Of a stretch of DNA of 64,000 nucleotides, positions 2,918-54,115 are shown piece by piece. A model generated the notes under the pieces. It did no database searches and was not told the DNA's origin. It saw nothing but the letters and a program-made list of their open reading frames with translations. Source of the DNA: Escherichia phage vB_EcoM_JNE01; the sequence record OR670491; one strand, given 5' to 3'. The first letter of the stretch is position 1. Each line of letters begins with the position of its first letter. The translations under genes and the position numbers were made by a program.

Positions 2918-3670
2918 ATGTCTACACAATCCTTTTTAGAAAAAGCAGGGGAAAAACGTTTACTGATAATCAGCGGGGCTGGGTTATCGGTTGAAAGTGG
3001 GATGGAGCCATTTCGTTTTGATGATGGCTTATGGGATAACTTTCAAATCAATGACGTGTGTAATATTGCACGTCTTAGTTCCAAATATCATATAGTACAT
3101 GCATTCTATAATACTCTAAGAGTAAAATTAGGTTCGTGTGAACCAAATGCAATGCACTATTACATCAAATCATTAGAGGATCAGTACAAAGATAATTTCT
3201 TACACATGACCTCCAATATGGATGATTTGTACACTCGAATCGGTGGAACCGAGTTGAAGCTTCATGGTAATCTACGAGAAGTTATTAAAAACTACTCAAT
3301 CAATAGTGATGACTATGAAGTAATTGACTGTGGTTATGAACCGTTCATTCCAGAGACTGATGTGTTCTCTAAACCAAATGTTGTTATGATTGGTGAATAT
3401 CATCGTTATGTGGATGGGAACCGTCTTCCTATCTACGAAGAACGAAATGAAGTGTTGCGTAGTCTTACTGAAAATGATACAGTAATTGTTATTGGGAGCA
3501 GTGATACAGTACTGGTATGGTCCAGACTAGCTGGGGCGTTACCTTGTTATAGTGTTACTGTTAACGTCAGAAAGAATGACAATGACTTCCTATTCAATGA
3601 ACGTATCATTAAGCCAGCAACTAAAGCAATTCCAGTACTGGAGCCAATCATTAAGGAAAGAATGAAATGA
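2918..3670 (+). CDS. SIR2-family (sirtuin-like) NAD-dependent enzyme
   Basis: ISGAGLSVESG (GAGxSxxSG NAD-binding motif), TSNMDDL (TQNxD-like), HGNL (catalytic His); no four-Cys zinc module. Start refined to ATG 2918 (RBS gaaagg); ORF-track 2903 is a TTG. Confidence 0.7.
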   Translation: MSTQSFLEKAGEKRLLIISGAGLSVESGMEPFRFDDGLWDNFQINDVCNIARLSSKYHIVHAFYNTLRVKLGSCEPNAMHYYIKSLEDQYKDNFLHMTSNMDDLYTRIGGTELKLHGNLREVIKNYSINSDDYEVIDCGYEPFIPETDVFSKPNVVMIGEYHRYVDGNRLPIYEERNEVLRSLTENDTVIVIGSSDTVLVWSRLAGALPCYSVTVNVRKNDNDFLFNERIIKPATKAIPVLEPIIKERMK

Positions 3671-4224
3671 GTTTGAGAGAAGTACCACTCGGAGAATTTG
3701 GCAAACAAGCAAACTTTGTATTCTGTTACTTCTTTGCACGAAATTGTAATCCATATGAGAATTACGAGTTGAATGATATTCCAGTAGTTAATCTGGTACT
3801 CCTTCAACTCCGTTGGGATGGGTTGATGGGTGGATGTGGAGGAACAGTTGAAGATTCTGATACTTCACTTGAAGCTGCGTTGAAGCGTGAAATCCAAGAA
3901 GAAATGGATTATAATATTTCCATTGAACAGTTGAAACCTCTAAAGACGTTTGAATTGTTCCCTGGTGCTAACACTCATAGCTTCAGTTATGAAGTCACAT
4001 ATGATGAGTTGAAAGCGATTCGTGACGGGTACAGTACTGCTAAACATGCCAGTGCTGAAGTAGCGGGTGTAAATTTATGTCACATTTCTCGATATTCTAA
4101 GGGAAAAAATCGAGAAGCAGGATATAATAATCTCATGACACAAAACTTCATTGGAACAGCTAAGGAAGAATTGCAGTACTTAGTTGAAAATGAAAACTTA
4201 CTTATCAGTTACTTACAAGGGTAG
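3667..4224 (+). CDS. Nudix hydrolase
   Basis: Nudix-box-like GGCGGTVEDSDTSLEAALKREIQEEMD (Gx5Ex7REUxEExGU pattern); start overlaps SIR2 stop (ATGA), suggesting translational coupling. Confidence 0.6.
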   Translation: MSLREVPLGEFGKQANFVFCYFFARNCNPYENYELNDIPVVNLVLLQLRWDGLMGGCGGTVEDSDTSLEAALKREIQEEMDYNISIEQLKPLKTFELFPGANTHSFSYEVTYDELKAIRDGYSTAKHASAEVAGVNLCHISRYSKGKNREAGYNNLMTQNFIGTAKEELQYLVENENLLISYLQG

Positions 4225-4230
4225 AACAAA

Positions 4231-4551
4231 ATGTCATATGAAATGTTCCTCGATGATATTCGTAACCCAGGATACTATTATCCAGGTCGTTCGATGGTTG
4301 TATGTCGTGATTTTAAAAGTGCATGTAAACAAGTTGAAAAATTTGGTATTCCATCATTTATTTCATTCGATCACGATTTGGGCGACATGAATTATGATGA
4401 AAAAACTGGGTATTCCTTCGCTAAATGGATTATTGATTATATGTTTGAGCACGAAATCAAAACACCTTTTGCATTTCATGTTCACAGTAGTAATCCAGTT
4501 GGTAAAGTGAATATCGAACATTACCTTAACAATGCATTCGAAAATTTATGA
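4231..4551 (+). CDS. hypothetical protein (conserved-looking FDHDLG / HVHSSNPVG motifs)
   Basis: 106 aa ORF immediately downstream of SIR2-Nudix pair; family not recognised. Confidence 0.45.
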   Translation: MSYEMFLDDIRNPGYYYPGRSMVVCRDFKSACKQVEKFGIPSFISFDHDLGDMNYDEKTGYSFAKWIIDYMFEHEIKTPFAFHVHSSNPVGKVNIEHYLNNAFENL

Positions 4552-4838
4552 AACAGTTAATTATAAGTGCATTAATAACAATAGCGTTATGTACGGTGTG
4601 TATTCTAATTTTGAATTATATTGACCAAAATTCAAAACAGAATGAACACTTTCAGTCCGCTGTAGTAATTTCATTAGGTCAGTGCAGTAAAAGTGCATGT
4701 TCTTTCACTTACAAAACCGAAGATGGTTATGTAATGTCTGGACTGTCAGAAAAACCAGTATCGATTGGTCAGATTGTTTACCAAAAGTGCTGGGAAACTA
4801 AAGTGCGAGGTCATGCTTGTAGTGATTTCGTGCAATAA
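4548..4838 (+). CDS. membrane/secreted small protein
   Basis: N-terminal hydrophobic segment MKQLIISALITIALCTVCILIL; ATGA overlap with upstream gene. Confidence 0.4.
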   Translation: MKQLIISALITIALCTVCILILNYIDQNSKQNEHFQSAVVISLGQCSKSACSFTYKTEDGYVMSGLSEKPVSIGQIVYQKCWETKVRGHACSDFVQ

Positions 4839-4888
4839 GTAATCTACCAATCGAGTACAAGGATGTACTCATAACTCAAGGATGTTTT

Positions 4889-6328
4889 ATGAAAAAATAT
4901 ACAATTGACACAAACGTACTACTATCTGATCCAAATGCTACCATTGCTTTTGATGGAGCAGCTATCATTCTACCGTTCACAGTACTTGAAGAATTGGATT
5001 CAATCAAAAGTCGTAATGTGGATGTTTCCCGTGATGCTCGTGTTGCAATCCGTAATATTGAAGCAATCCTTTCTGATGCATCACATGAAGAAATTAGTAG
5101 TACTGGTGTTAATATTGCTGATGTTCATACTAATATGAGTCCTGAAAGCAAATTGTTTGTTATTACAAGCGAAGAAGCTGAAGCACTAATTCGCACTGCT
5201 GGTAACGAAGAGAAAGTTCAAACTCTTCTAAAAAGCACAGTACCAGATGATAAAATCATTTTAGTAGCATTAGCAACTGATTCAGTACTGGTTACCCGTG
5301 ATATCAATATGCGTATCAAGGCTCTAAGCTACGGGGTGGAAGTTCAAGATTACCGTCATGATATCGTGATTGGTGATAGTGATTTGATTCACATTGGTCA
5401 ACATCACCTTGACCTACATTTCTGGGATGTGTATAGTAATCTGACTGATGTATCTATTCAGTCTGAACAAGTTGGTCGTCGTTTGTACCACTACATTCCA
5501 AAAAGCTTGATTGAACATATCATGCCACAAAATATTTGCATCGGTGATTACCTATATGATAATGCTGATGTTCTATTTGTGTACGAAGGCCAATCTGCAA
5601 TTGAAGAAGATGATGGTACTTTAACACCAGAAGATATTCTTGTATTCCAAGATATTGGACAATCTGTTGCTCTACGTGCTAAAGTGTGGGATATTAAGGC
5701 TAAGAATATTCAACAAGCACTAGCAATCAACAGTATCCTAGATCCTGATGTTCATCTAACAGTACTGTTGGGTTCCGCAGGTACTGGTAAAACGCTAATT
5801 ACCATTGCGACTGCACTTGAATTGGTTCTTGAGAAGAAGAAATATGACCGTATTATGTTCTCAAAACCACAAGATTCACAATGGGCCGAAATCGGTTTCT
5901 TACCAGGCACTGAAATGGAAAAAATGCTACCACATTGTGGCCCTGCATTGGATGCTTTGGAATTCTTACATAAAGATGATGCATCACCACAAGGTAGTAT
6001 TGAGGAAATAATCAAGCGTAATGTTATTCAGTTCAAAGCATTGAACTTCATTCGCGGTCGTTCATTTACCAACACTATTCTGGTTGTGGATGAGTTTCAG
6101 AACATCACACCTGCTCAGGCTAAGACAATCCTTACCCGTGCTGGCATGAACTGCAAAGTGATTATTCTTGGGAACTTGGCACAGATTGATAGTAAATTCA
6201 TTAGCCCAGTTAACAGCGGCTTAACATATGTTGTTGAGAAATTTAAAAACTGGGATGGTTGTCGAGTAATCGAACTCGAAGGTGTTGTTCGTTCACCACT
6301 GGCAGAATTTGCTGAAGAAAATATGTAA
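4889..6328 (+). CDS. phoH: PhoH-like ATPase with N-terminal PIN domain
   Basis: Walker A LLGSAGTGKTLI, Walker B ILVVDEFQN; N-terminal PIN-like MKKYTIDTNVLL; 479 aa. Confidence 0.8.
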   Translation: MKKYTIDTNVLLSDPNATIAFDGAAIILPFTVLEELDSIKSRNVDVSRDARVAIRNIEAILSDASHEEISSTGVNIADVHTNMSPESKLFVITSEEAEALIRTAGNEEKVQTLLKSTVPDDKIILVALATDSVLVTRDINMRIKALSYGVEVQDYRHDIVIGDSDLIHIGQHHLDLHFWDVYSNLTDVSIQSEQVGRRLYHYIPKSLIEHIMPQNICIGDYLYDNADVLFVYEGQSAIEEDDGTLTPEDILVFQDIGQSVALRAKVWDIKAKNIQQALAINSILDPDVHLTVLLGSAGTGKTLITIATALELVLEKKKYDRIMFSKPQDSQWAEIGFLPGTEMEKMLPHCGPALDALEFLHKDDASPQGSIEEIIKRNVIQFKALNFIRGRSFTNTILVVDEFQNITPAQAKTILTRAGMNCKVIILGNLAQIDSKFISPVNSGLTYVVEKFKNWDGCRVIELEGVVRSPLAEFAEENM

Positions 6329-10835: not shown

Positions 10836-11053
10836 AAGCAAAAGAATTAGCAGAATTACTGTTACAACATCCTGACGCAGAAGTTATTGTTTGTGATGAA
10901 GAAATGTTTTTAGTTAATGCGTCTAAAGTAACGGTTTATGAAAAAGATGAGATGATAAAAGAAGGTGATGGTAGTACCAAATCGGAAGACCTTACTTCTC
11001 TTGGAATCTACGATTATCCAATTTGTAATACACAAGTTATTTTTATTTCATGA
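10832..11053 (+). CDS. hypothetical protein (N-terminus paralogous to 34374 gene)
   Basis: MKAKELAELLLQHPDAEV versus MKAKDLAALLMQNPEMEV at 34374. Confidence 0.45.
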   Translation: MKAKELAELLLQHPDAEVIVCDEEMFLVNASKVTVYEKDEMIKEGDGSTKSEDLTSLGIYDYPICNTQVIFIS

Positions 11054-11060
11054 GGAAACT

Positions 11061-11420
11061 ATGAGTGATTATGTTGGATTCCTATACCGCTTTGGTGTTG
11101 CACAAGAAAAACACATCATCCGTATGCCAGCATATGGTGAGAAAGGATGGTATAAGAGTATTATCAGTGTAGGTGCATTTCGTGACCGTGAAGCAGTATA
11201 CTTCCTTAAGAGTCTCAGTGATGAACCTATTCGCTTCTCACTTCAGCGTTTATCAGAATGGGAGGAAAGTAATAAAATCACAGCAGAATCAATGCAAGCC
11301 GTATGTGGTATTCAAAATTATGTCCATCCATATGACAATCTTCCTTGTACTGTGCATAATTCAGTGTTTGACTTTTATGCAGCAGTAGGGTATGATTATA
11401 AAAAGAAACGTTACATTTGA
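11061..11420 (+). CDS. hypothetical protein
   Basis: Start refined to ATG 11061 with RBS gagga; ORF-track 10965 start overlaps previous gene. Confidence 0.5.
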   Translation: MSDYVGFLYRFGVAQEKHIIRMPAYGEKGWYKSIISVGAFRDREAVYFLKSLSDEPIRFSLQRLSEWEESNKITAESMQAVCGIQNYVHPYDNLPCTVHNSVFDFYAAVGYDYKKKRYI

Positions 11421-11439: not shown

Positions 11440-12057
11440 ATGACAGCAGCCGACAAGTACTGGTGGATTTACAACCACGCCTCATTCGTCAACAAAGATT
11501 TAGTATATCCAAAGATTGAGATTGAACCACATAACGTATGCCCTGATACCAATCGCATTGAAGACCATGAATATCTAAATACAAAGGTTCAGTACTGGGT
11601 AGAGTTGATGACCCCTGAATTCGATGAAGATTCACAAAACTGGATTCTTTCACACGATTATCAGTTAGATTGTGGTGGTGATACCTTTGAAGAAGCAATT
11701 GATGCAGTGTACAATAAGGTTTTGGAACGTTACGGTACATACAAACAAGAAGATGCAGATGCGTTATTTGATTCATTGTTTAAAAAATCATCACAACCAA
11801 ATCCAGCATACCAGCAATTTAGCAATCCACATGAACGATTATACAGTGCTACGTTTCTGTTGTTGAATTACGATGACAAGTTCTCGCTGATTGATAGCAT
11901 AGATACTCGTAAAAATACAATAAAGTCCTTGCAGAAGTACATTGCTTCTTGTACAATAGAGCAATCAGAGAAAGCAAAGATTGCATTAGAAGATGAAGAA
12001 TGTTTGCTTTGGTTGCAAGAACTATCACTTAAAACAGGCGTGGATTTATTACTATGA
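11440..12057 (+). CDS. hypothetical protein
   Basis: Start refined to ATG 11440 (RBS gggga); 206 aa. Confidence 0.5.
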   Translation: MTAADKYWWIYNHASFVNKDLVYPKIEIEPHNVCPDTNRIEDHEYLNTKVQYWVELMTPEFDEDSQNWILSHDYQLDCGGDTFEEAIDAVYNKVLERYGTYKQEDADALFDSLFKKSSQPNPAYQQFSNPHERLYSATFLLLNYDDKFSLIDSIDTRKNTIKSLQKYIASCTIEQSEKAKIALEDEECLLWLQELSLKTGVDLLL

Positions 12058-12422
12058 ACAGTAAACTGGAAAAACTAATTGAAGAACTTCGACGGATGCC
12101 GCCAATTGAGCAAGTTGGCAATTACAAGCGTTATCGCGTTATAGCACGAGCACTGGATAAGAAAGGTCGAGTACTGGCAACTCGTACCAACTCTTATACA
12201 CAAACTCATCCTAAACAGAAAGGGTTTGCGATTCGTGCTGGACGTCCACAAGGTGAGTTTCTTCATGCTGAAATTTCATGTTTACTGGCTGCACGGGCTG
12301 AAGTTCATACTCTGTTGATTGCACGAGTCAGTAAAGATGGCATTCCAGTTCCAGCTAAACCATGCGAGATTTGCACTTTAGCTATCCAAGAATATGGAGT
12401 AAAAGAAATTATTCACACATGA
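12054..12422 (+). CDS. cytidine/deoxycytidylate deaminase family zinc-binding protein
   Basis: HAE (HAEISCL) and PCxxC (PCEIC) zinc-binding motifs of the CDA fold; 122 aa. Confidence 0.6.
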   Translation: MNSKLEKLIEELRRMPPIEQVGNYKRYRVIARALDKKGRVLATRTNSYTQTHPKQKGFAIRAGRPQGEFLHAEISCLLAARAEVHTLLIARVSKDGIPVPAKPCEICTLAIQEYGVKEIIHT

Positions 12423-41802: not shown

Positions 41803-42915
41803 ATGAAAAAATATCTCGTGGGTGGATTCGTCCGCGACCGACTACTGGGCTTACGTGCTAAAGACAAAGATTATGTCATTGTCAGTGCATCTGAATCTGA
41901 TATTAAGTACTTGAAAAGTATTGGGTACAAACAAGTCGGCATTGATTTCCCTGTATTCTTGAGTCCAGAGGGAAATGAATATGCATTAGCCAGGACTGAA
42001 CGTAAAGTCGGTGTAGGCTATAATGGCTTTGAAGTTAATACTAAAGGTGTAACCTTAGAAGACGACTTATATCGCCGTGACCTCACAATCAATGCTATTG
42101 CATACGATCCAGTACTGCAAATTCACATCGACCCATACGGTGGGAAAGATGATATTAAGAATAAAGTACTGCGTCACGTTTCAGAGCACTTCAAAGAAGA
42201 CCCATTACGTGTTCTTCGTCTTGCACGCTTTGCAACACGATATAATGACTTTACAATTCACGAAAGTACTGTTACAATGTGCACTGAAATGGTTAGTACT
42301 GGTGAGTTGAATCATCTTGTACCAGACCGTGTGTATGTTGAATTTGAAAAGGCACTCACTGAAGAGAAACCTGCCAAGTTCCTTAAGACACTGGCTAATT
42401 TCGGCTATTATGAAAAAGCATTTACTAAAACACTAACCCGTAAGGTATTAGAATTGGTTGATAACATTTCAGATAATTGTACAGAAGCATATAAGCCATA
42501 TTTCATTTGGAGTGCACTACTCGAAACAGAAGAAGTAAATAAAGACTCAGTACTGAACGAATCAATTAAAATGCCCGTTAAGTACGTGAAGTTTAGCAAT
42601 TATGTAAAACGATTCCGTGATGATATCAAGACATTCCGTAAGAAAACACCTGAAGAGATGGGTGCGTTGTTACTGGAAATGAACATTCGAAATAACGGTG
42701 GGGAAGAATTCCTGTACAAAGTGCTGGAGTACTTTATTCTTCGTCGTGAAATCGACCTTGAACTTGAAGATTTGATTATTAAGGTGTATGATCGTTACAC
42801 CGATACTGTATTACCTGATATTGAAGAAATGGTTAAAGACGGTTCTCTGGACAAGAAAGATATTCGTGACTTTGTACAAGGTTTGCGTATTACTGAAATC
42901 CAGAAAATGTTCTGA
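41803..42915 (+). CDS. cca: tRNA nucleotidyltransferase (CCA-adding enzyme family)
   Basis: N-terminal MKKYLVGGFVRDRLLGL ... DxD ... GIDFPVFLSPEGNEYALARTERK ... RRDLTINA closely follows class II CCA-adding enzyme head domain. Confidence 0.85.
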   Translation: MKKYLVGGFVRDRLLGLRAKDKDYVIVSASESDIKYLKSIGYKQVGIDFPVFLSPEGNEYALARTERKVGVGYNGFEVNTKGVTLEDDLYRRDLTINAIAYDPVLQIHIDPYGGKDDIKNKVLRHVSEHFKEDPLRVLRLARFATRYNDFTIHESTVTMCTEMVSTGELNHLVPDRVYVEFEKALTEEKPAKFLKTLANFGYYEKAFTKTLTRKVLELVDNISDNCTEAYKPYFIWSALLETEEVNKDSVLNESIKMPVKYVKFSNYVKRFRDDIKTFRKKTPEEMGALLLEMNIRNNGGEEFLYKVLEYFILRREIDLELEDLIIKVYDRYTDTVLPDIEEMVKDGSLDKKDIRDFVQGLRITEIQKMF

Positions 42916-42991
42916 AATCATTGGACAAATCTTCAAGTACTGATATAATTAATGGTATCTGAACATCATATGATGAAAACGAGATAAGATT

Positions 42992-43424
42992 ATGCGTTAT
43001 AGTTGTGGTATAATATTTTATCGTGATGGTCAGATACTTGTTGGTCATACAACACGGACAGCAGCACTGGGATTTACCTAAAGGTAAAACTGAAGGTGAT
43101 GAAACATTTAAAGAAGCTGCGGTTCGTGAGTGTTATGAAGAGACAGGATTCCAAATCAATGAAGATGATTTACTTCTTCTTGGTGATGTTTCTTATAGAA
43201 AGGGTAAGAGATTAGTATTATTCTTTTATACTGCAAAGGATAAGCCAATCCCTTCAGAACTGGAATGTAAAAGTACTTATACCAACCGATACGGTAGAAG
43301 TCATCCAGAACTGGATAAGTTCATGTACATTGATGTAGAAGATTGTCAAAAGTATTTGACTGAACGAATGTGTAATAGTATAATAAAGGCTGTTAAAGCT
43401 TTTCAAAGAAACAGAAGGAAATGA
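42992..43424 (+). CDS. Nudix hydrolase with apparent +1 frameshift near 43065-43080
   Basis: ATG 42992 opens MRYSCGIIFYRDGQILVGHTTR... (typical Nudix N-terminal strand) but stops at 43081; Nudix box GKTEGDETFKEAAVRECYEETGF continues in the ORF-track frame 43023..43424. Confidence 0.55.
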
Positions 43425-43675
43425 ATATGAAAGTTAAAATTTATGGTCGTAAGACTGGCTGTAAGTTCTGTGATACTGCGAAGCAAGTATGTGAAGCGAA
43501 CAAATTTGATATGGAATTCATTGATATCGCTGAAGCTGGTATCGATGGTGTTAAACTGGCAGAAATCTGTGGTCAAGCAGTACGCCAAGTTCCACAAATC
43601 TTTGTAAACGAAGAATACGTACCAGGTGGTTGTACTGGTTTTATCGATGGTCTACGTGAAGGTCGCTGGAATTAA
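43421..43675 (+). CDS. nrdC: glutaredoxin/thioredoxin-like protein (NrdC-like)
   Basis: CxxC (CKFC) active site, VPQIF and GG motifs; 84 aa. Confidence 0.7.
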   Translation: MNMKVKIYGRKTGCKFCDTAKQVCEANKFDMEFIDIAEAGIDGVKLAEICGQAVRQVPQIFVNEEYVPGGCTGFIDGLREGRWN

Positions 43676-44249: not shown

Positions 44250-44726
44250 ATGATACACGAACATATTGGTAATCTGTTTGAATTATTCAGTACTGTAACA
44301 AATGATGACGGTGTATTGCACATAATCGCTCATGGTTGTAATGCTCAAGGTAAGATGGGTTCAGGATTTGCAAAAGAATTACGAAATCGTTACTCAATGG
44401 CCTACGATGATTACAAGAAGTATGAAAAGGAAATGGGCTTTCTACGAACTGGTCAAATTTCCTATTCTGCCATCAATGATGATTTGATTATTGCAAACTG
44501 TATTACCCAAAAATGGTATGGTACAGATGGTGCAAAATACGTAAGTTATGATGCAATTGACGAAGTATTTCATAAACTAAATATGTTCTGTAAAATTGAA
44601 CGCAATGTTCATTTGCACTTCCCGAAAATTGGAGCCGACTTAGGCGGTGGTAACTGGAACGTTATCAAAGAAATCATTGACCACAGGATGGTTAATGCAG
44701 AAAAACACTTATATATTTTGAAATAA
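44250..44726 (+). CDS. macrodomain protein (TARG1/DarG-like)
   Basis: HGCNAQGKMGSGFAKEL and C-terminal FPKIGADLGGGNW resemble TARG1/C6orf130-type macrodomains (xxGxMGxGIA ... PxIGxGL). Confidence 0.6.
   Translation: MIHEHIGNLFELFSTVTNDDGVLHIIAHGCNAQGKMGSGFAKELRNRYSMAYDDYKKYEKEMGFLRTGQISYSAINDDLIIANCITQKWYGTDGAKYVSYDAIDEVFHKLNMFCKIERNVHLHFPKIGADLGGGNWNVIKEIIDHRMVNAEKHLYILK

Positions 44727-51995: not shown

Positions 51996-54115
<2,120 letters not shown>

What the first reader, a model, noticed from the sequence alone, without database searches (positions are those of the whole stretch)
42992..43424. Apparent +1 frame break inside the second Nudix gene
The typical Nudix N-terminal strand (MRYSCGIIFYRDGQILVGHTTR) is encoded from ATG 42992 and terminates at 43081, while the Nudix box (GKTEGDETFKEAAVRECYEETGF) is in the overlapping frame starting at 43023. 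Either the gene is frameshifted (error or pseudogene), or translation shifts frame here.
Basis: seen in the sequence. Interest (0 to 1): 0.45.

Follow-up and report, generated by a model that had tools for sequence, protein, structure and literature searches.

The report
Conserved +1 frame break in phage Nudix gene
A jumbo E. coli phage and all its close relatives carry one extra base inside a Nudix hydrolase gene, yet both halves of the gene are still kept intact by selection, so ribosomes most likely skip that base at a very rare arginine codon to make the full enzyme; databases currently annotate only the truncated half.

Summary
ATG 42992 opens a frame that encodes the first two Nudix beta-strands and stops at 43079-43081. 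The Nudix box lies in the +1 frame, which is open from 43014 to 43424. The window is an Asteriusvirus (121Q/PBECO4-like jumbo coliphage, 99.4% identical to phage Turkey5).

The break is a single extra nucleotide in an invariant ACA ACA CGG ACA G (43049-43061). All 13 Asteriusvirus genomes sampled have it, and the truncated protein is called on more than 300 public contigs. Every relative outside the genus reads GHTTGQxHWDLPKGK in one frame.

It is neither a sequencing error nor a decaying pseudogene:
- Upstream of the break, variable sites fall 1/0/6 by codon position in frame 0.
- Downstream they fall 21/11/76 in the +1 frame.
- The promoter, ribosome-binding site and ATG 42992 are conserved.

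Skipping C43055 gives a 143-aa protein whose first 53 residues are identical to an intact sister homologue. CGG is the rarest sense codon in the window (4 of 18,419). The overlapping +1 codon GGA and the preceding ACA are read by phage-encoded tRNAs.

Best reading (confidence about 0.6): a fixed indel compensated by +1 ribosomal frameshifting at a hungry codon, of the Ty3 or glass-sponge-mitochondria type. This is inferred, not shown. I found no report of it.

The parts
42922..42949 (+). Sigma-70-type promoter: TGGACA, 16-nt spacer, extended -10 TGATATAAT
   Evidence: 11 of 12 consensus matches with TG before the -10. Both hexamers are conserved in shifted and intact relatives. Consensus match only; function not shown.
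42955..42962 (+). Conserved GTATCTGA motif just downstream of the -10 (probable transcript start region)
   Evidence: Invariant in all 11 aligned relatives, shifted and intact, while the surrounding intergenic sequence varies. Role inferred.
42981..42991 (+). Ribosome-binding-site-like GAGATAAGATT directly in front of ATG 42992
   Evidence: Invariant in the Asteriusvirus genomes and in sister L042; GAGA-type purine tract in more distant relatives. No comparable purine tract precedes ATG 43026.
42992..43054 (+). Frame-0 segment of the recoded gene: 21 codons, MRYSCGIIFYRDGQILVGHTT, the two N-terminal beta-strands of the Nudix fold
   Evidence: Variable sites by codon position are 1/0/6 among 9 haplotypes (Fisher p=0.004). 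Aligns to residues 5 onward of Ap4A hydrolase 3i7u. Forms strands 2-8 and 14-20 in the AlphaFold2 model of sister protein P0001, pLDDT 94.5.
43049..43061 (+). Proposed shift cassette ACA ACA CGG ACA G. P-site ACA is 43052-43054, the frame-0 A-site codon CGG is 43055-43057, and the +1 codon GGA is 43056-43058. C43055 is the extra, skipped base.
   Evidence: Invariant in all 13 Asteriusvirus genomes and contig L036. Intact relatives read ACN ACN GGN CAR with free third positions. CGG is the rarest sense codon in the window, 4 of 18,419.
43056..43424 (+). +1-frame segment: GQQHWDLPKGK, the Nudix box and the C-terminal helices, to TGA 43422-43424
   Evidence: Pfam NUDIX. Variable sites 21/11/76 by codon position; pN about 0.06 against pS about 0.5-0.7.
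43079..43081 (+). Frame-0 stop TAA, which ends the non-shifted 29-aa product
   Evidence: Not conserved: AAA in phage A4, where frame 0 runs two codons further. The frame-0 tail RTAALGFT varies non-conservatively.
43023..43028 (+). GTG/ATG in the +1 frame, used as the start codon by GenBank annotators (132-136 aa products)
   Evidence: The first 10 codons of that ORF (MVRYLLVIQH / MVRYLSDIQH / MVRYLSGIQH / MVRYLLDTQH) change non-conservatively.
43011..43013 (+). TAA that closes the +1 frame upstream, so the shift must occur between 43014 and 43078
   Evidence: Homology to intact relatives narrows it to 43052-43058.

Best explanation
The gene is a functional Nudix hydrolase whose reading frame was broken by a one-base insertion in the ancestor of the Asteriusvirus phages. 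It is expressed by +1 ribosomal frameshifting.

Proposed steps:
1. Translation starts at ATG 42992, behind a conserved promoter and ribosome-binding site.
2. It reads 21 codons to ACA ACA. With peptidyl-tRNA-Thr(UGU) on ACA 43052-43054, the A site shows CGG, the rarest codon of this phage. In E. coli a minor tRNA reads CGG (from memory, Dong et al. 1996).
3. During the pause, Gly-tRNA(UCC), which the phage itself encodes, binds the overlapping GGA (43056-43058). C43055 is skipped.
4. [quoted passage not shown] The product is a 143-aa protein with the ancestral junction GHTT-GQQHWDLPKGK.
5. Ribosomes that do not shift stop after 29 residues.

The P-site tRNA cannot re-pair in the +1 frame (ACA to CAC). 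The event would therefore be of the Ty3 / hexactinellid-mitochondrial kind (rare NGG codon, then GGA), not the prfB/Ty1 slippage kind.

Shown here: the break, its fixation in the clade, selection on both halves in their own frames, codon rarity and the phage tRNA genes.
Inferred: that ribosomes shift, where exactly, and how efficiently.
For: (1) The extra base is fixed. The cassette ACA ACA CGG ACA G is invariant in 13 Asteriusvirus genomes and one metagenome contig. Truncated gene calls occur on more than 300 contigs. No intact protein above 87% identity exists in a 5.8-billion-protein database.

(2) All relatives outside the genus are intact and colinear, including the syntenic sisters L041 and L042.

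(3) Selection switches frame at the site. Upstream, variable sites are 1/0/6 by frame-0 codon position. P(at most 1 of 42 first and second positions variable) is about 6e-18 if they evolved like downstream third positions. Fisher p=0.004 for third against first plus second positions. Downstream the count is 21/11/76 in the +1 frame. In the annotated +1 frame, the first 10 codons change non-conservatively (L/S, V/D/G, I/T).

(4) The clade has diverged by up to 24% in the neighbouring CCA-enzyme gene, so the break is old.

(5) The promoter, the GTATCTGA motif, the ribosome-binding site and ATG 42992 are conserved. No ribosome-binding site precedes ATG 43026.

(6) The 21 upstream residues are strands 2-8 and 14-20 of the fold. 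They align to solved Nudix structures. Pfam coverage extends from profile position 18 to position 7 when the frames are joined.

(7) CGG is used 4 times in 18,419 codons (0.22 per thousand), against 191 GGA and 382 ACA.

(8) Turkey5, 99.4% identical to the window over the 651-base Nudix region compared, encodes tRNA-Gly(UCC) and two tRNA-Thr(UGU) but no tRNA for CGG. Sharanji is similar.

[quoted passage not shown] CGG behaves as a hungry codon in E. coli, with Gln misincorporation (PMC5491249, citing McNulty 2003).
Against: There is no direct evidence of the trans-frame protein: no proteomics, ribosome profiling or reporter data.

The P-site tRNA cannot re-pair in the +1 frame, and non-slippage +1 shifting at a sense codon has no documented natural bacterial example that I know of (from memory). 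Efficiency may therefore be low.

No Shine-Dalgarno-like stimulator lies upstream, and there is no clade-specific downstream structure. The long-range pairing of 43053-43065 with 43116-43128 is also seen in intact relatives.

GGA is itself not a favoured E. coli codon (from memory). The phage tRNA set (ACA, GGA, AGA, UCA readers) is typical of AT-rich phages and is not specific to this site.

Three of the four in-frame CGG codons elsewhere in the window are also followed by A, so CGG_A alone is not prohibitive.

The upstream evidence rests on only 7 variable sites. A 24-nt block there (43016-43039) is conserved at the nucleotide level even in intact relatives.
Confidence: 0.6

Rival explanations
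1. Two separate products. Ribosomes make a 29-aa peptide from ATG 42992, and independently start at ATG 43026 (or GTG 43023) to make the annotated 132-aa protein. Either the peptide supplies the two missing beta-strands in trans (a split Nudix), or it acts as a leader or regulatory small ORF.
For: This is what every GenBank record annotates for the downstream part. ATG 43026 is present in all shifted genomes. Frame-0 selection on codons 1-21 would also be expected if the peptide itself is needed.
Against: No ribosome-binding site precedes 43026. That ATG is forced by the frame-0 codons CGT GAT GGT and also occurs in intact relatives. The first 10 residues of the 132-aa ORF are not conserved. 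The truncated protein lacks two core strands. The peptide's tail and its stop codon are not conserved. I know of no split Nudix (from memory). The junction restores the ancestral sequence exactly, which this model does not need.
Confidence: 0.2
2. Inactivated gene. The insertion killed the Nudix gene, and what is seen is a non-functional remnant that has not yet decayed.
For: There is a frame break with an early stop. The phage has another Nudix-family gene at 3655-4224 (Nudt16-like) that could make this one dispensable.
Against: Across lineages with pS of 0.5-0.7, both halves keep pN of about 0.06 or less, with no further stops or indels. The exception is the low-quality CMSTMSU record. Only 1 of 42 first and second codon positions upstream varies. 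The expression signals are conserved.
Confidence: 0.05
3. Another recoding route restores the frame: a phage tRNA that reads four bases (ACAC or CGGA), or RNA polymerase slippage or editing that removes a base from the mRNA.
For: The phage carries its own tRNA cluster and a CCA-adding enzyme next to the gene. One degenerate tRNA-like sequence lies in the Turkey5 cluster.
Against: ARAGORN and Rfam find only tRNAs with normal 7-nt anticodon loops in the Turkey5 and Sharanji clusters. Both tRNA-Thr(UGU) genes are ordinary. The window has no tRNA gene. The site has no homopolymer run for polymerase slippage. Only the tRNA clusters were scanned, not whole genomes.
Confidence: 0.08
4. Sequencing or assembly error in this window.
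For: None beyond the presence of a frame break.
Against: The identical extra base occurs in a non-homopolymer context in 13 genomes from different laboratories and platforms, and in metagenome and Logan contigs.
Confidence: 0.01

Closest known systems
+1 frameshifting in hexactinellid (glass sponge) mitochondrial genes (cox3, nad6 and others)
   Same: A single extra base lies immediately 5' of a GGA codon and creates an extremely rare NGG codon (UGG or CGG) in the old frame. Both sides remain conserved in their own frames. The proposed mechanism is a pause at the rare codon and capture by tRNA-Gly(GGA) (PMC2267718; PMC5009743, section 31). This falls in the 'corrective/compensatory' class of frameshifting.
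   Different: That system is mitochondrial, with a reduced tRNA set. Here it is a dsDNA phage translated by E. coli ribosomes with a mixed host and phage tRNA pool. The site here is preceded by ACA ACA. Neither case has direct protein proof that I know of.
Yeast Ty3 (GCG_AGU_U) +1 frameshifting
   Same: A slow sense codon sits in the A site. The P-site tRNA cannot re-pair in the +1 frame. The incoming +1-frame aminoacyl-tRNA decides the outcome (PMC5009743).
   Different: Ty3 is eukaryotic, uses a special near-cognate P-site tRNA and has a 14-nt 3' stimulator. No stimulator is identified here. Ty3 produces two useful products (Gag and Gag-Pol), whereas here the non-shifted product looks useless.
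E. coli prfB (RF2) and Listeria phage PSA +1 frameshifts
   Same: They are bacterial or phage +1 frameshifts required to make the full-length protein.
   Different: Those use a stop codon in the A site, or a slippery CUU_U / CCC_U P-site codon that re-pairs. prfB also has an upstream Shine-Dalgarno stimulator and PSA a downstream pseudoknot (PMC5009743). None of these features is present here.
[quoted passage not shown]
   Same: A shortage of rare arginine-codon tRNA drives ribosomes out of frame in E. coli (Spanjaard and van Duin 1988; Gurvich 2005; cited in PMC6456624 and PMC10885494).
   Different: Those are tandem codons, mostly seen on over-expressed or synthetic messages. Here it is a single CGG in a natural, conserved gene.
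RppH / Ap4A hydrolase / Dcp2-type Nudix hydrolases
   Same: These are the best sequence and fold matches of the recoded protein or its intact sister. The Nudix box is complete.
   Different: Identity is only 18-28% and TM-score about 0.6. The substrate is unknown.

Membership tests
Nudix hydrolase superfamily (PF00293) | Nudix box GX5EX7REUXEEXGU | tested here: met
   GKTEGDETFKEAAVRECYEETG from 43083 in the +1 frame.
Nudix hydrolase superfamily (PF00293) | Profile match above the curated cut-off | tested here: met
   47.6 bits for the truncated ORF and 51.0 bits for the joined product, against a cut-off of 21.1.
Nudix hydrolase superfamily (PF00293) | Complete alpha/beta/alpha fold including the N-terminal strands | tested here: met
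   Met only for the joined 143-aa product. Strands 2-8 and 14-20 of the AlphaFold2 model of sister P0001 (first 53 aa identical) are encoded upstream of the break. The annotated 132-aa ORF lacks them.
Nudix hydrolase superfamily (PF00293) | Pyrophosphohydrolase activity | not testable with these tools
   Needs a biochemical assay.
Programmed/compensatory +1 ribosomal frameshift at a hungry sense codon (Ty3 / hexactinellid type) | Two overlapping ORFs, the downstream one in the +1 frame, together colinear with single-frame homologues | tested here: met
Programmed/compensatory +1 ribosomal frameshift at a hungry sense codon (Ty3 / hexactinellid type) | Both ORF parts under purifying selection in their own frame, and the break conserved across a diverged clade | tested here: met
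Programmed/compensatory +1 ribosomal frameshift at a hungry sense codon (Ty3 / hexactinellid type) | Rare or slow codon in the frame-0 A site | tested here: met
   CGG is the rarest sense codon, 4 of 18,419. tRNA abundance in infected cells was not measured.
Programmed/compensatory +1 ribosomal frameshift at a hungry sense codon (Ty3 / hexactinellid type) | Well-supplied tRNA for the overlapping +1 codon | tested here: inconclusive
   Phage-encoded tRNA-Gly(UCC) reads GGA, and GGA is the second most used Gly codon. Expression levels are unknown, and the tRNA is probably also present in relatives with an intact gene.
Programmed/compensatory +1 ribosomal frameshift at a hungry sense codon (Ty3 / hexactinellid type) | Trans-frame protein demonstrated | not testable with these tools
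   No proteomic or ribosome-profiling data; none found in the literature.
prfB / Ty1-type +1 slippage | P-site tRNA can re-pair with the +1 codon (for example CUU_U or CCC_U) | tested here: not met
   ACA to CAC allows no pairing with anticodon UGU (sequence).
prfB / Ty1-type +1 slippage | Stop codon in the A site and a Shine-Dalgarno-like stimulator 3 nt upstream (prfB) | tested here: not met
   The A-site codon is CGG. Upstream sequence is GTTGGTCATACAACA with no Shine-Dalgarno-like tract.
Transcriptional slippage | Homopolymer run at the site | tested here: not met
   ACAACACGGACAG has no such run.
Pseudogene | Relaxed selection and accumulation of further lesions | tested here: not met
   pN is well below pS on both sides, with no further stops or indels in 12 of 13 genomes.

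The most novel reading that the evidence does not exclude
The frame break is not just tolerated but used as a tRNA-balance switch. Early in infection, scarce host tRNA-Arg(CCG) still decodes CGG and most ribosomes terminate after 29 codons. As phage tRNA-Gly(UCC) and tRNA-Thr(UGU) accumulate, or if host arginine tRNAs are damaged, more ribosomes shift. This would dose or time an RppH/Dcp2-like RNA 5'-end hydrolase. It would be a natural, non-slippage (Ty3-type) +1 frameshift operating on E. coli ribosomes and tuned by virus-encoded tRNAs.
Probability: 0.15. Interest if true: 0.75.

Novelty: new member of a known kind. Interest (0 to 1): 0.55.

Why it matters
Natural +1 frameshifts in bacteria and their phages are few. 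The well-studied ones (prfB, Listeria phage PSA) use stop codons or slippery P-site codons.

A conserved ACA_CGG_A site in a coliphage would bring the rare-codon, no-re-pairing type of +1 shifting into E. coli. That type is so far argued mainly for yeast Ty3 and sponge mitochondria. In E. coli, tRNA levels (argX, phage tRNA-Gly), reporters and mass spectrometry are easy to handle.

There is also an annotation consequence. Dozens of GenBank records and more than 300 public gene calls list a 132-136 aa 'Nudix hydrolase' that starts in the wrong place and lacks two core strands. The likely product is join(42992..43054,43056..43424).

If the shift turns out to be inefficient or absent, the case still shows a fixed indel held under selection on both sides, which needs another explanation.

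Tried and rejected
(1) Sequencing error. Rejected: the same base is in 13 genomes and in metagenome contigs.

(2) Suppressor-type tRNA. The window has no tRNA gene. The Sharanji and Turkey5 tRNA clusters hold only normal tRNAs. One weak tRNA-like sequence in Turkey5 is degenerate.

(3) Downstream stimulatory RNA structure. In the window, 43053-43065 pairs with 43116-43128 (z = -3.35). The pairing is only partly kept in other Asteriusviruses, and similar pairings occur in intact relatives, so it is not specific. My first alignment fold used wrong locus offsets and was discarded.

(4) Shine-Dalgarno-like stimulator upstream: none.

(5) Termination-reinitiation: there is no ATG, GTG or TTG in the +1 frame near TAA 43079 (sequence).

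(6) Other CGG-type frame breaks in the window: the scan found no convincing second case.

(7) Literature searches for a frameshift in Asteriusvirus/121Q/PBECO4, or in any Nudix gene, found nothing relevant. McNulty 2003 on CGG could not be read.

(8) Single origin of the insertion. Trees of the flanking genes support it, but the Nudix gene itself places phage A4 next to the intact L042. This is left open.

Full report
**What is in the sequence**

The window is on the + strand of a jumbo E. coli phage of the genus Asteriusvirus. Its Nudix region is 99.4% identical to phage Turkey5 and about 84-86% identical to 121Q, PBECO4 and others. The local gene order is CCA-adding tRNA nucleotidyltransferase (41803-42915), the Nudix gene, glutaredoxin (43421-43675), two small ORFs, and a gene (44250-44726, no Pfam hit) whose 121Q counterpart is annotated as a macro-domain protein.

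- ATG 42992 opens a frame that reads MRYSCGIIFYRDGQILVGHTTRTAALGFT and stops at TAA 43079-43081.
- The +1 frame is closed by TAA 43011-43013 and open from 43014. It has GTG 43023 and ATG 43026 and runs to TGA 43422-43424.
- That frame contains the only strict Nudix box in the window and matches Pfam NUDIX at 47.6 bits.

**The break is one extra nucleotide, fixed in a whole genus**

I aligned the site with relatives from GenBank phages, IMG/VR, metagenomes and Logan assemblies.
- Every relative outside Asteriusvirus encodes ...ILxGHTTGQxHWDLPKGK... in a single frame. These are the Serratia phage BF/Erwinia Eneladusvirus group, GAP32-like and RaK2-like phages, and many uncultured contigs.
- All 13 Asteriusvirus genomes examined, and contig L036, carry ACA ACA CGG ACA G where the others have ACN ACN GGN CAR. 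The 13 are the window, Turkey5, 121Q, PBECO4, vB_Ec-M-J, TH47, WPEC5, BF17, CMSTMSU, Ecwhy_1, UE-S1, Salmonella phage SD-2_S15 and A4.
- Annotators therefore start the gene at the internal ATG or GTG, giving 132-136 aa.
- In the 15-billion-protein collection, these truncated calls sit on more than 300 contigs.
- No intact homologue more than 87% identical to the window protein exists.

Joining 42992..43054 to 43056..43424 (that is, skipping C43055) gives 143 aa. The first 53 residues are identical to the intact sister protein P0001, and the junction is identical to that of L035.

**Age and origin**

The closest intact lineages are L042-44 (P0003) and L041 (P0001). They share the synteny lysozyme, S30AE, CCA enzyme, Nudix, glutaredoxin.

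Neighbour-joining trees of the flanking CCA gene (1.1 kb) and of 1.3 kb downstream place the four shifted lineages tested (window, 121Q, vB_Ec-M-J, A4) together. L042 is their sister and L041 branches next. That fits one insertion on the stem of the genus. Crown divergence reaches 24% in the CCA gene.

There is a caveat. Inside the Nudix gene body (about 43000-43400), A4 is closer to the intact L042 (0.13-0.14) than to the other shifted phages (0.17-0.25). Rate differences, recombination, or a reversion in the L042 lineage could each explain this. I could not decide between them.

**Selection switches frame at the site**

Nine distinct haplotypes were compared.
- The 21 codons upstream of the break have variable sites at codon positions 1/2/3 of frame 0 in the ratio 1/0/6. 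The single non-synonymous change is V/I.
- The 117 codons compared downstream show 21/11/76 in the +1 frame. pS is about 0.5-0.7 and pN about 0.05-0.08 between the main lineages.
- If the upstream stretch were an untranslated remnant evolving like downstream third positions (65% variable), seeing at most 1 variable site among 42 first and second positions has probability about 6e-18.
- The third-position excess gives Fisher p=0.004, or p=0.003 outside an invariant 24-nt block.
- Read in the annotated +1 frame, the same substitutions are non-conservative (L/S, V/D/G, I/T), so the first 10 residues of the annotated ORF are not under selection.
- After the site, synonymous changes fall in the +1 frame (CAC/CAT, GAT/GAC, CCT/CCA).
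- The frame-0 tail and its stop codon are not conserved; TAA is AAA in A4.

**Expression signals point to ATG 42992**

A near-consensus sigma-70 promoter lies at 42922-42949: TGGACA, a 16-nt spacer, and an extended -10 TGATATAAT (11 of 12). It is followed by a conserved GTATCTGA and a purine-rich GAGATAAGATT directly before ATG 42992. All of these are conserved in shifted and intact relatives alike, while the rest of the spacer varies. Nothing resembling a ribosome-binding site precedes ATG 43026.

**The upstream residues are structurally necessary**

An AlphaFold2 model of P0001 (pLDDT 94.5) places strands at residues 2-8 and 14-20, exactly the part encoded before the break. The joined protein aligns from residue 3 with the solved Ap4A hydrolase 3i7u. 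The Pfam match extends from profile position 18 to position 7. The nearest solved folds are E. coli RppH, Ap4A hydrolases and the Dcp2 Nudix domain, with TM-scores of about 0.6. The substrate remains unknown.

**Likely mechanism**

Homology fixes the frame transition between ACA 43052-43054 and GGA 43056-43058. The frame-0 codon there, CGG, is the rarest sense codon in the window's 81 ORFs: 4 of 18,419 codons and 4 of 728 Arg codons. ACA (382) and GGA (191) are common.

Turkey5 encodes tRNA-Gly(UCC), two tRNA-Thr(UGU), Leu(UAA), Ser(UGA), Ser(GCU) and Asn(GUU). Sharanji encodes Thr(UGU), Gly(UCC), Arg(UCU) and others. Neither encodes a reader of CGG. All have normal anticodon loops.

The arrangement is a rare NGG codon created by an extra base 5' of GGA. 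This is the one described for +1 frameshifting in glass-sponge mitochondria and interpreted like yeast Ty3 (PMC2267718; PMC5009743, section 31). CGG is a known hungry codon in E. coli (PMC5491249, citing McNulty 2003; also cited for frameshifting in PMC10885494).

tRNA-Thr(UGU) cannot pair with CAC, so the shift would occur without P-site re-pairing. I therefore propose a pause at CGG, out-of-frame binding of Gly-tRNA to GGA, and continuation in the +1 frame. The four synonymous positions in the cassette (ACA, ACA, GGA, CAG) are invariant, while 50-65% of other synonymous sites vary. That is only weak support (p about 0.02-0.06; my estimate).

**What argues against it, and the rivals**

- There are no protein-level data.
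- No Shine-Dalgarno-like or clade-specific structural stimulator was found.
- The phage tRNA set is typical of AT-rich phages.
- Three of the four other in-frame CGG codons are also followed by A.

The main rival (about 0.2) is independent translation of a 29-aa peptide and of the 132-aa ORF from ATG 43026, perhaps working as a split protein. It explains frame-0 selection upstream. It does not explain the missing ribosome-binding site, the unconserved N-terminus of the 132-aa ORF, or the unconserved peptide tail.

The other rivals, with reasons given in their own sections, are:
- pseudogene, about 0.05;
- another recoding route (four-base-reading tRNA, polymerase slippage), about 0.08;
- sequencing error, about 0.01.

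**Comparison with what is known, and novelty**

The protein is an ordinary member of the Nudix superfamily. The expression mode resembles compensatory +1 frameshifting at a rare sense codon (hexactinellid mitochondria, Ty3). It fails the defining features of prfB/Ty1/PSA-type sites.

I found no paper reporting a frameshift in this gene or genus, and no GenBank record examined annotates ribosomal slippage. I class it as a new member of a known kind, inferred computationally.

**Verdict**

Interest is 0.55. It is a clean, conserved and experimentally tractable candidate for +1 frameshifting on E. coli ribosomes, and a systematic mis-annotation, but it is unproven at the protein level.

Noticed in passing
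window 43016-43039: A 24-nt block, TTTTATCGTGATGGTCAGATACTT (codons 9-16 of the Nudix gene), is invariant at synonymous sites in all Asteriusviruses. It is also invariant in several distant relatives with an intact gene (Serratia phage BF and contigs L018, L019, L021). This points to a nucleotide-level constraint unrelated to the frame break; its cause is unknown.
   Followed up: partly
window 43053-43065 with 43116-43128: The shift site is predicted to pair with GCTGCGGTTCGTG about 60 nt downstream, inside the Nudix-box coding region (MFE z = -3.35). The pairing is partly kept in other Asteriusviruses, but similar pairings occur in intact relatives. Its significance is unclear.
   Followed up: partly
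window 43000-43400; loci L045 (phage A4) and L042: There is a mosaic signal. Inside the Nudix gene, A4 is closest to the intact L042 lineage (distance 0.13-0.14), while in both flanks it groups with the frameshifted phages. This could be recombination, rate differences, or a reversion of the insertion in the L042 lineage.
   Followed up: partly
proteins P0012, P0013, P0016, P0019, P0020, P0022; window 43421-43429: In several uncultured relatives, the Nudix gene and the downstream glutaredoxin are called as one fused 225-227 aa protein (PF00293 plus PF00462). In the window the two genes overlap at ATGA (43421-43424), with a second ATG at 43427.
   Followed up: no
window 3655-4224: The 'first' Nudix gene of the window is a Nudt16-like / U8 snoRNA-decapping-enzyme-like Nudix protein (PF22327, 70.7 bits). 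The phage therefore carries two RNA-decapping-like Nudix genes.
   Followed up: partly
window 12054-12422, 53090-53518, 10968-11420: The only four in-frame CGG codons in 81 ORFs lie in three places:
- two in a cytidine/tRNA-adenosine-deaminase-like gene (PF00383);
- one in a TnsA-like endonuclease gene, at codon 139 of 143;
- one at codon 6 of an unknown ORF.
Three of the four are followed by A.
   Followed up: partly
L040 (Turkey5 PQ471516) 4791-4869: A weak tRNA-like sequence (Rfam 33.3 bits, missed by default ARAGORN) sits where Sharanji has tRNA-Arg(UCU). It keeps the acceptor and T arms and a hairpin ACGGT-CTTCTAA-ACCGT with a UCU-type loop, but lacks a normal D arm. It may be a degenerate or atypical tRNA.
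   Followed up: partly
L040 (Turkey5) 5997-6310 and 3029-3147: A group I intron (Rfam 95 bits) lies in the tRNA cluster next to an HNH homing endonuclease gene. The record's 119-nt 'tRNA-Leu' at 3029-3147 is not supported by ARAGORN or Rfam, which instead find tRNA-Leu(UAA) at 3481-3565 and an unannotated tRNA-Gly(UCC) at 4531-4606.
   Followed up: no
window 42922-42962: A promoter-like TGGGACA/TGGACA, then TGNTATAAT, then GTATCTGA is conserved across all RaK2/121Q-like relatives upstream of this gene. It may be a family-wide early promoter and transcript-start motif worth searching genome-wide.
   Followed up: no
L027 (phage CMSTMSU MH494197): This record has a further frame break inside the Nudix gene, and the gene is split into small CDSs. 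The record is flagged UNVERIFIED_ORG, so the extra breaks are probably assembly errors. It was excluded from the selection analysis.
   Followed up: yes
window, whole: 80 of 81 ORFs of at least 80 aa lie on the + strand, GC content is 36.5%, and the 64-kb window has no tRNA gene.
   Followed up: no
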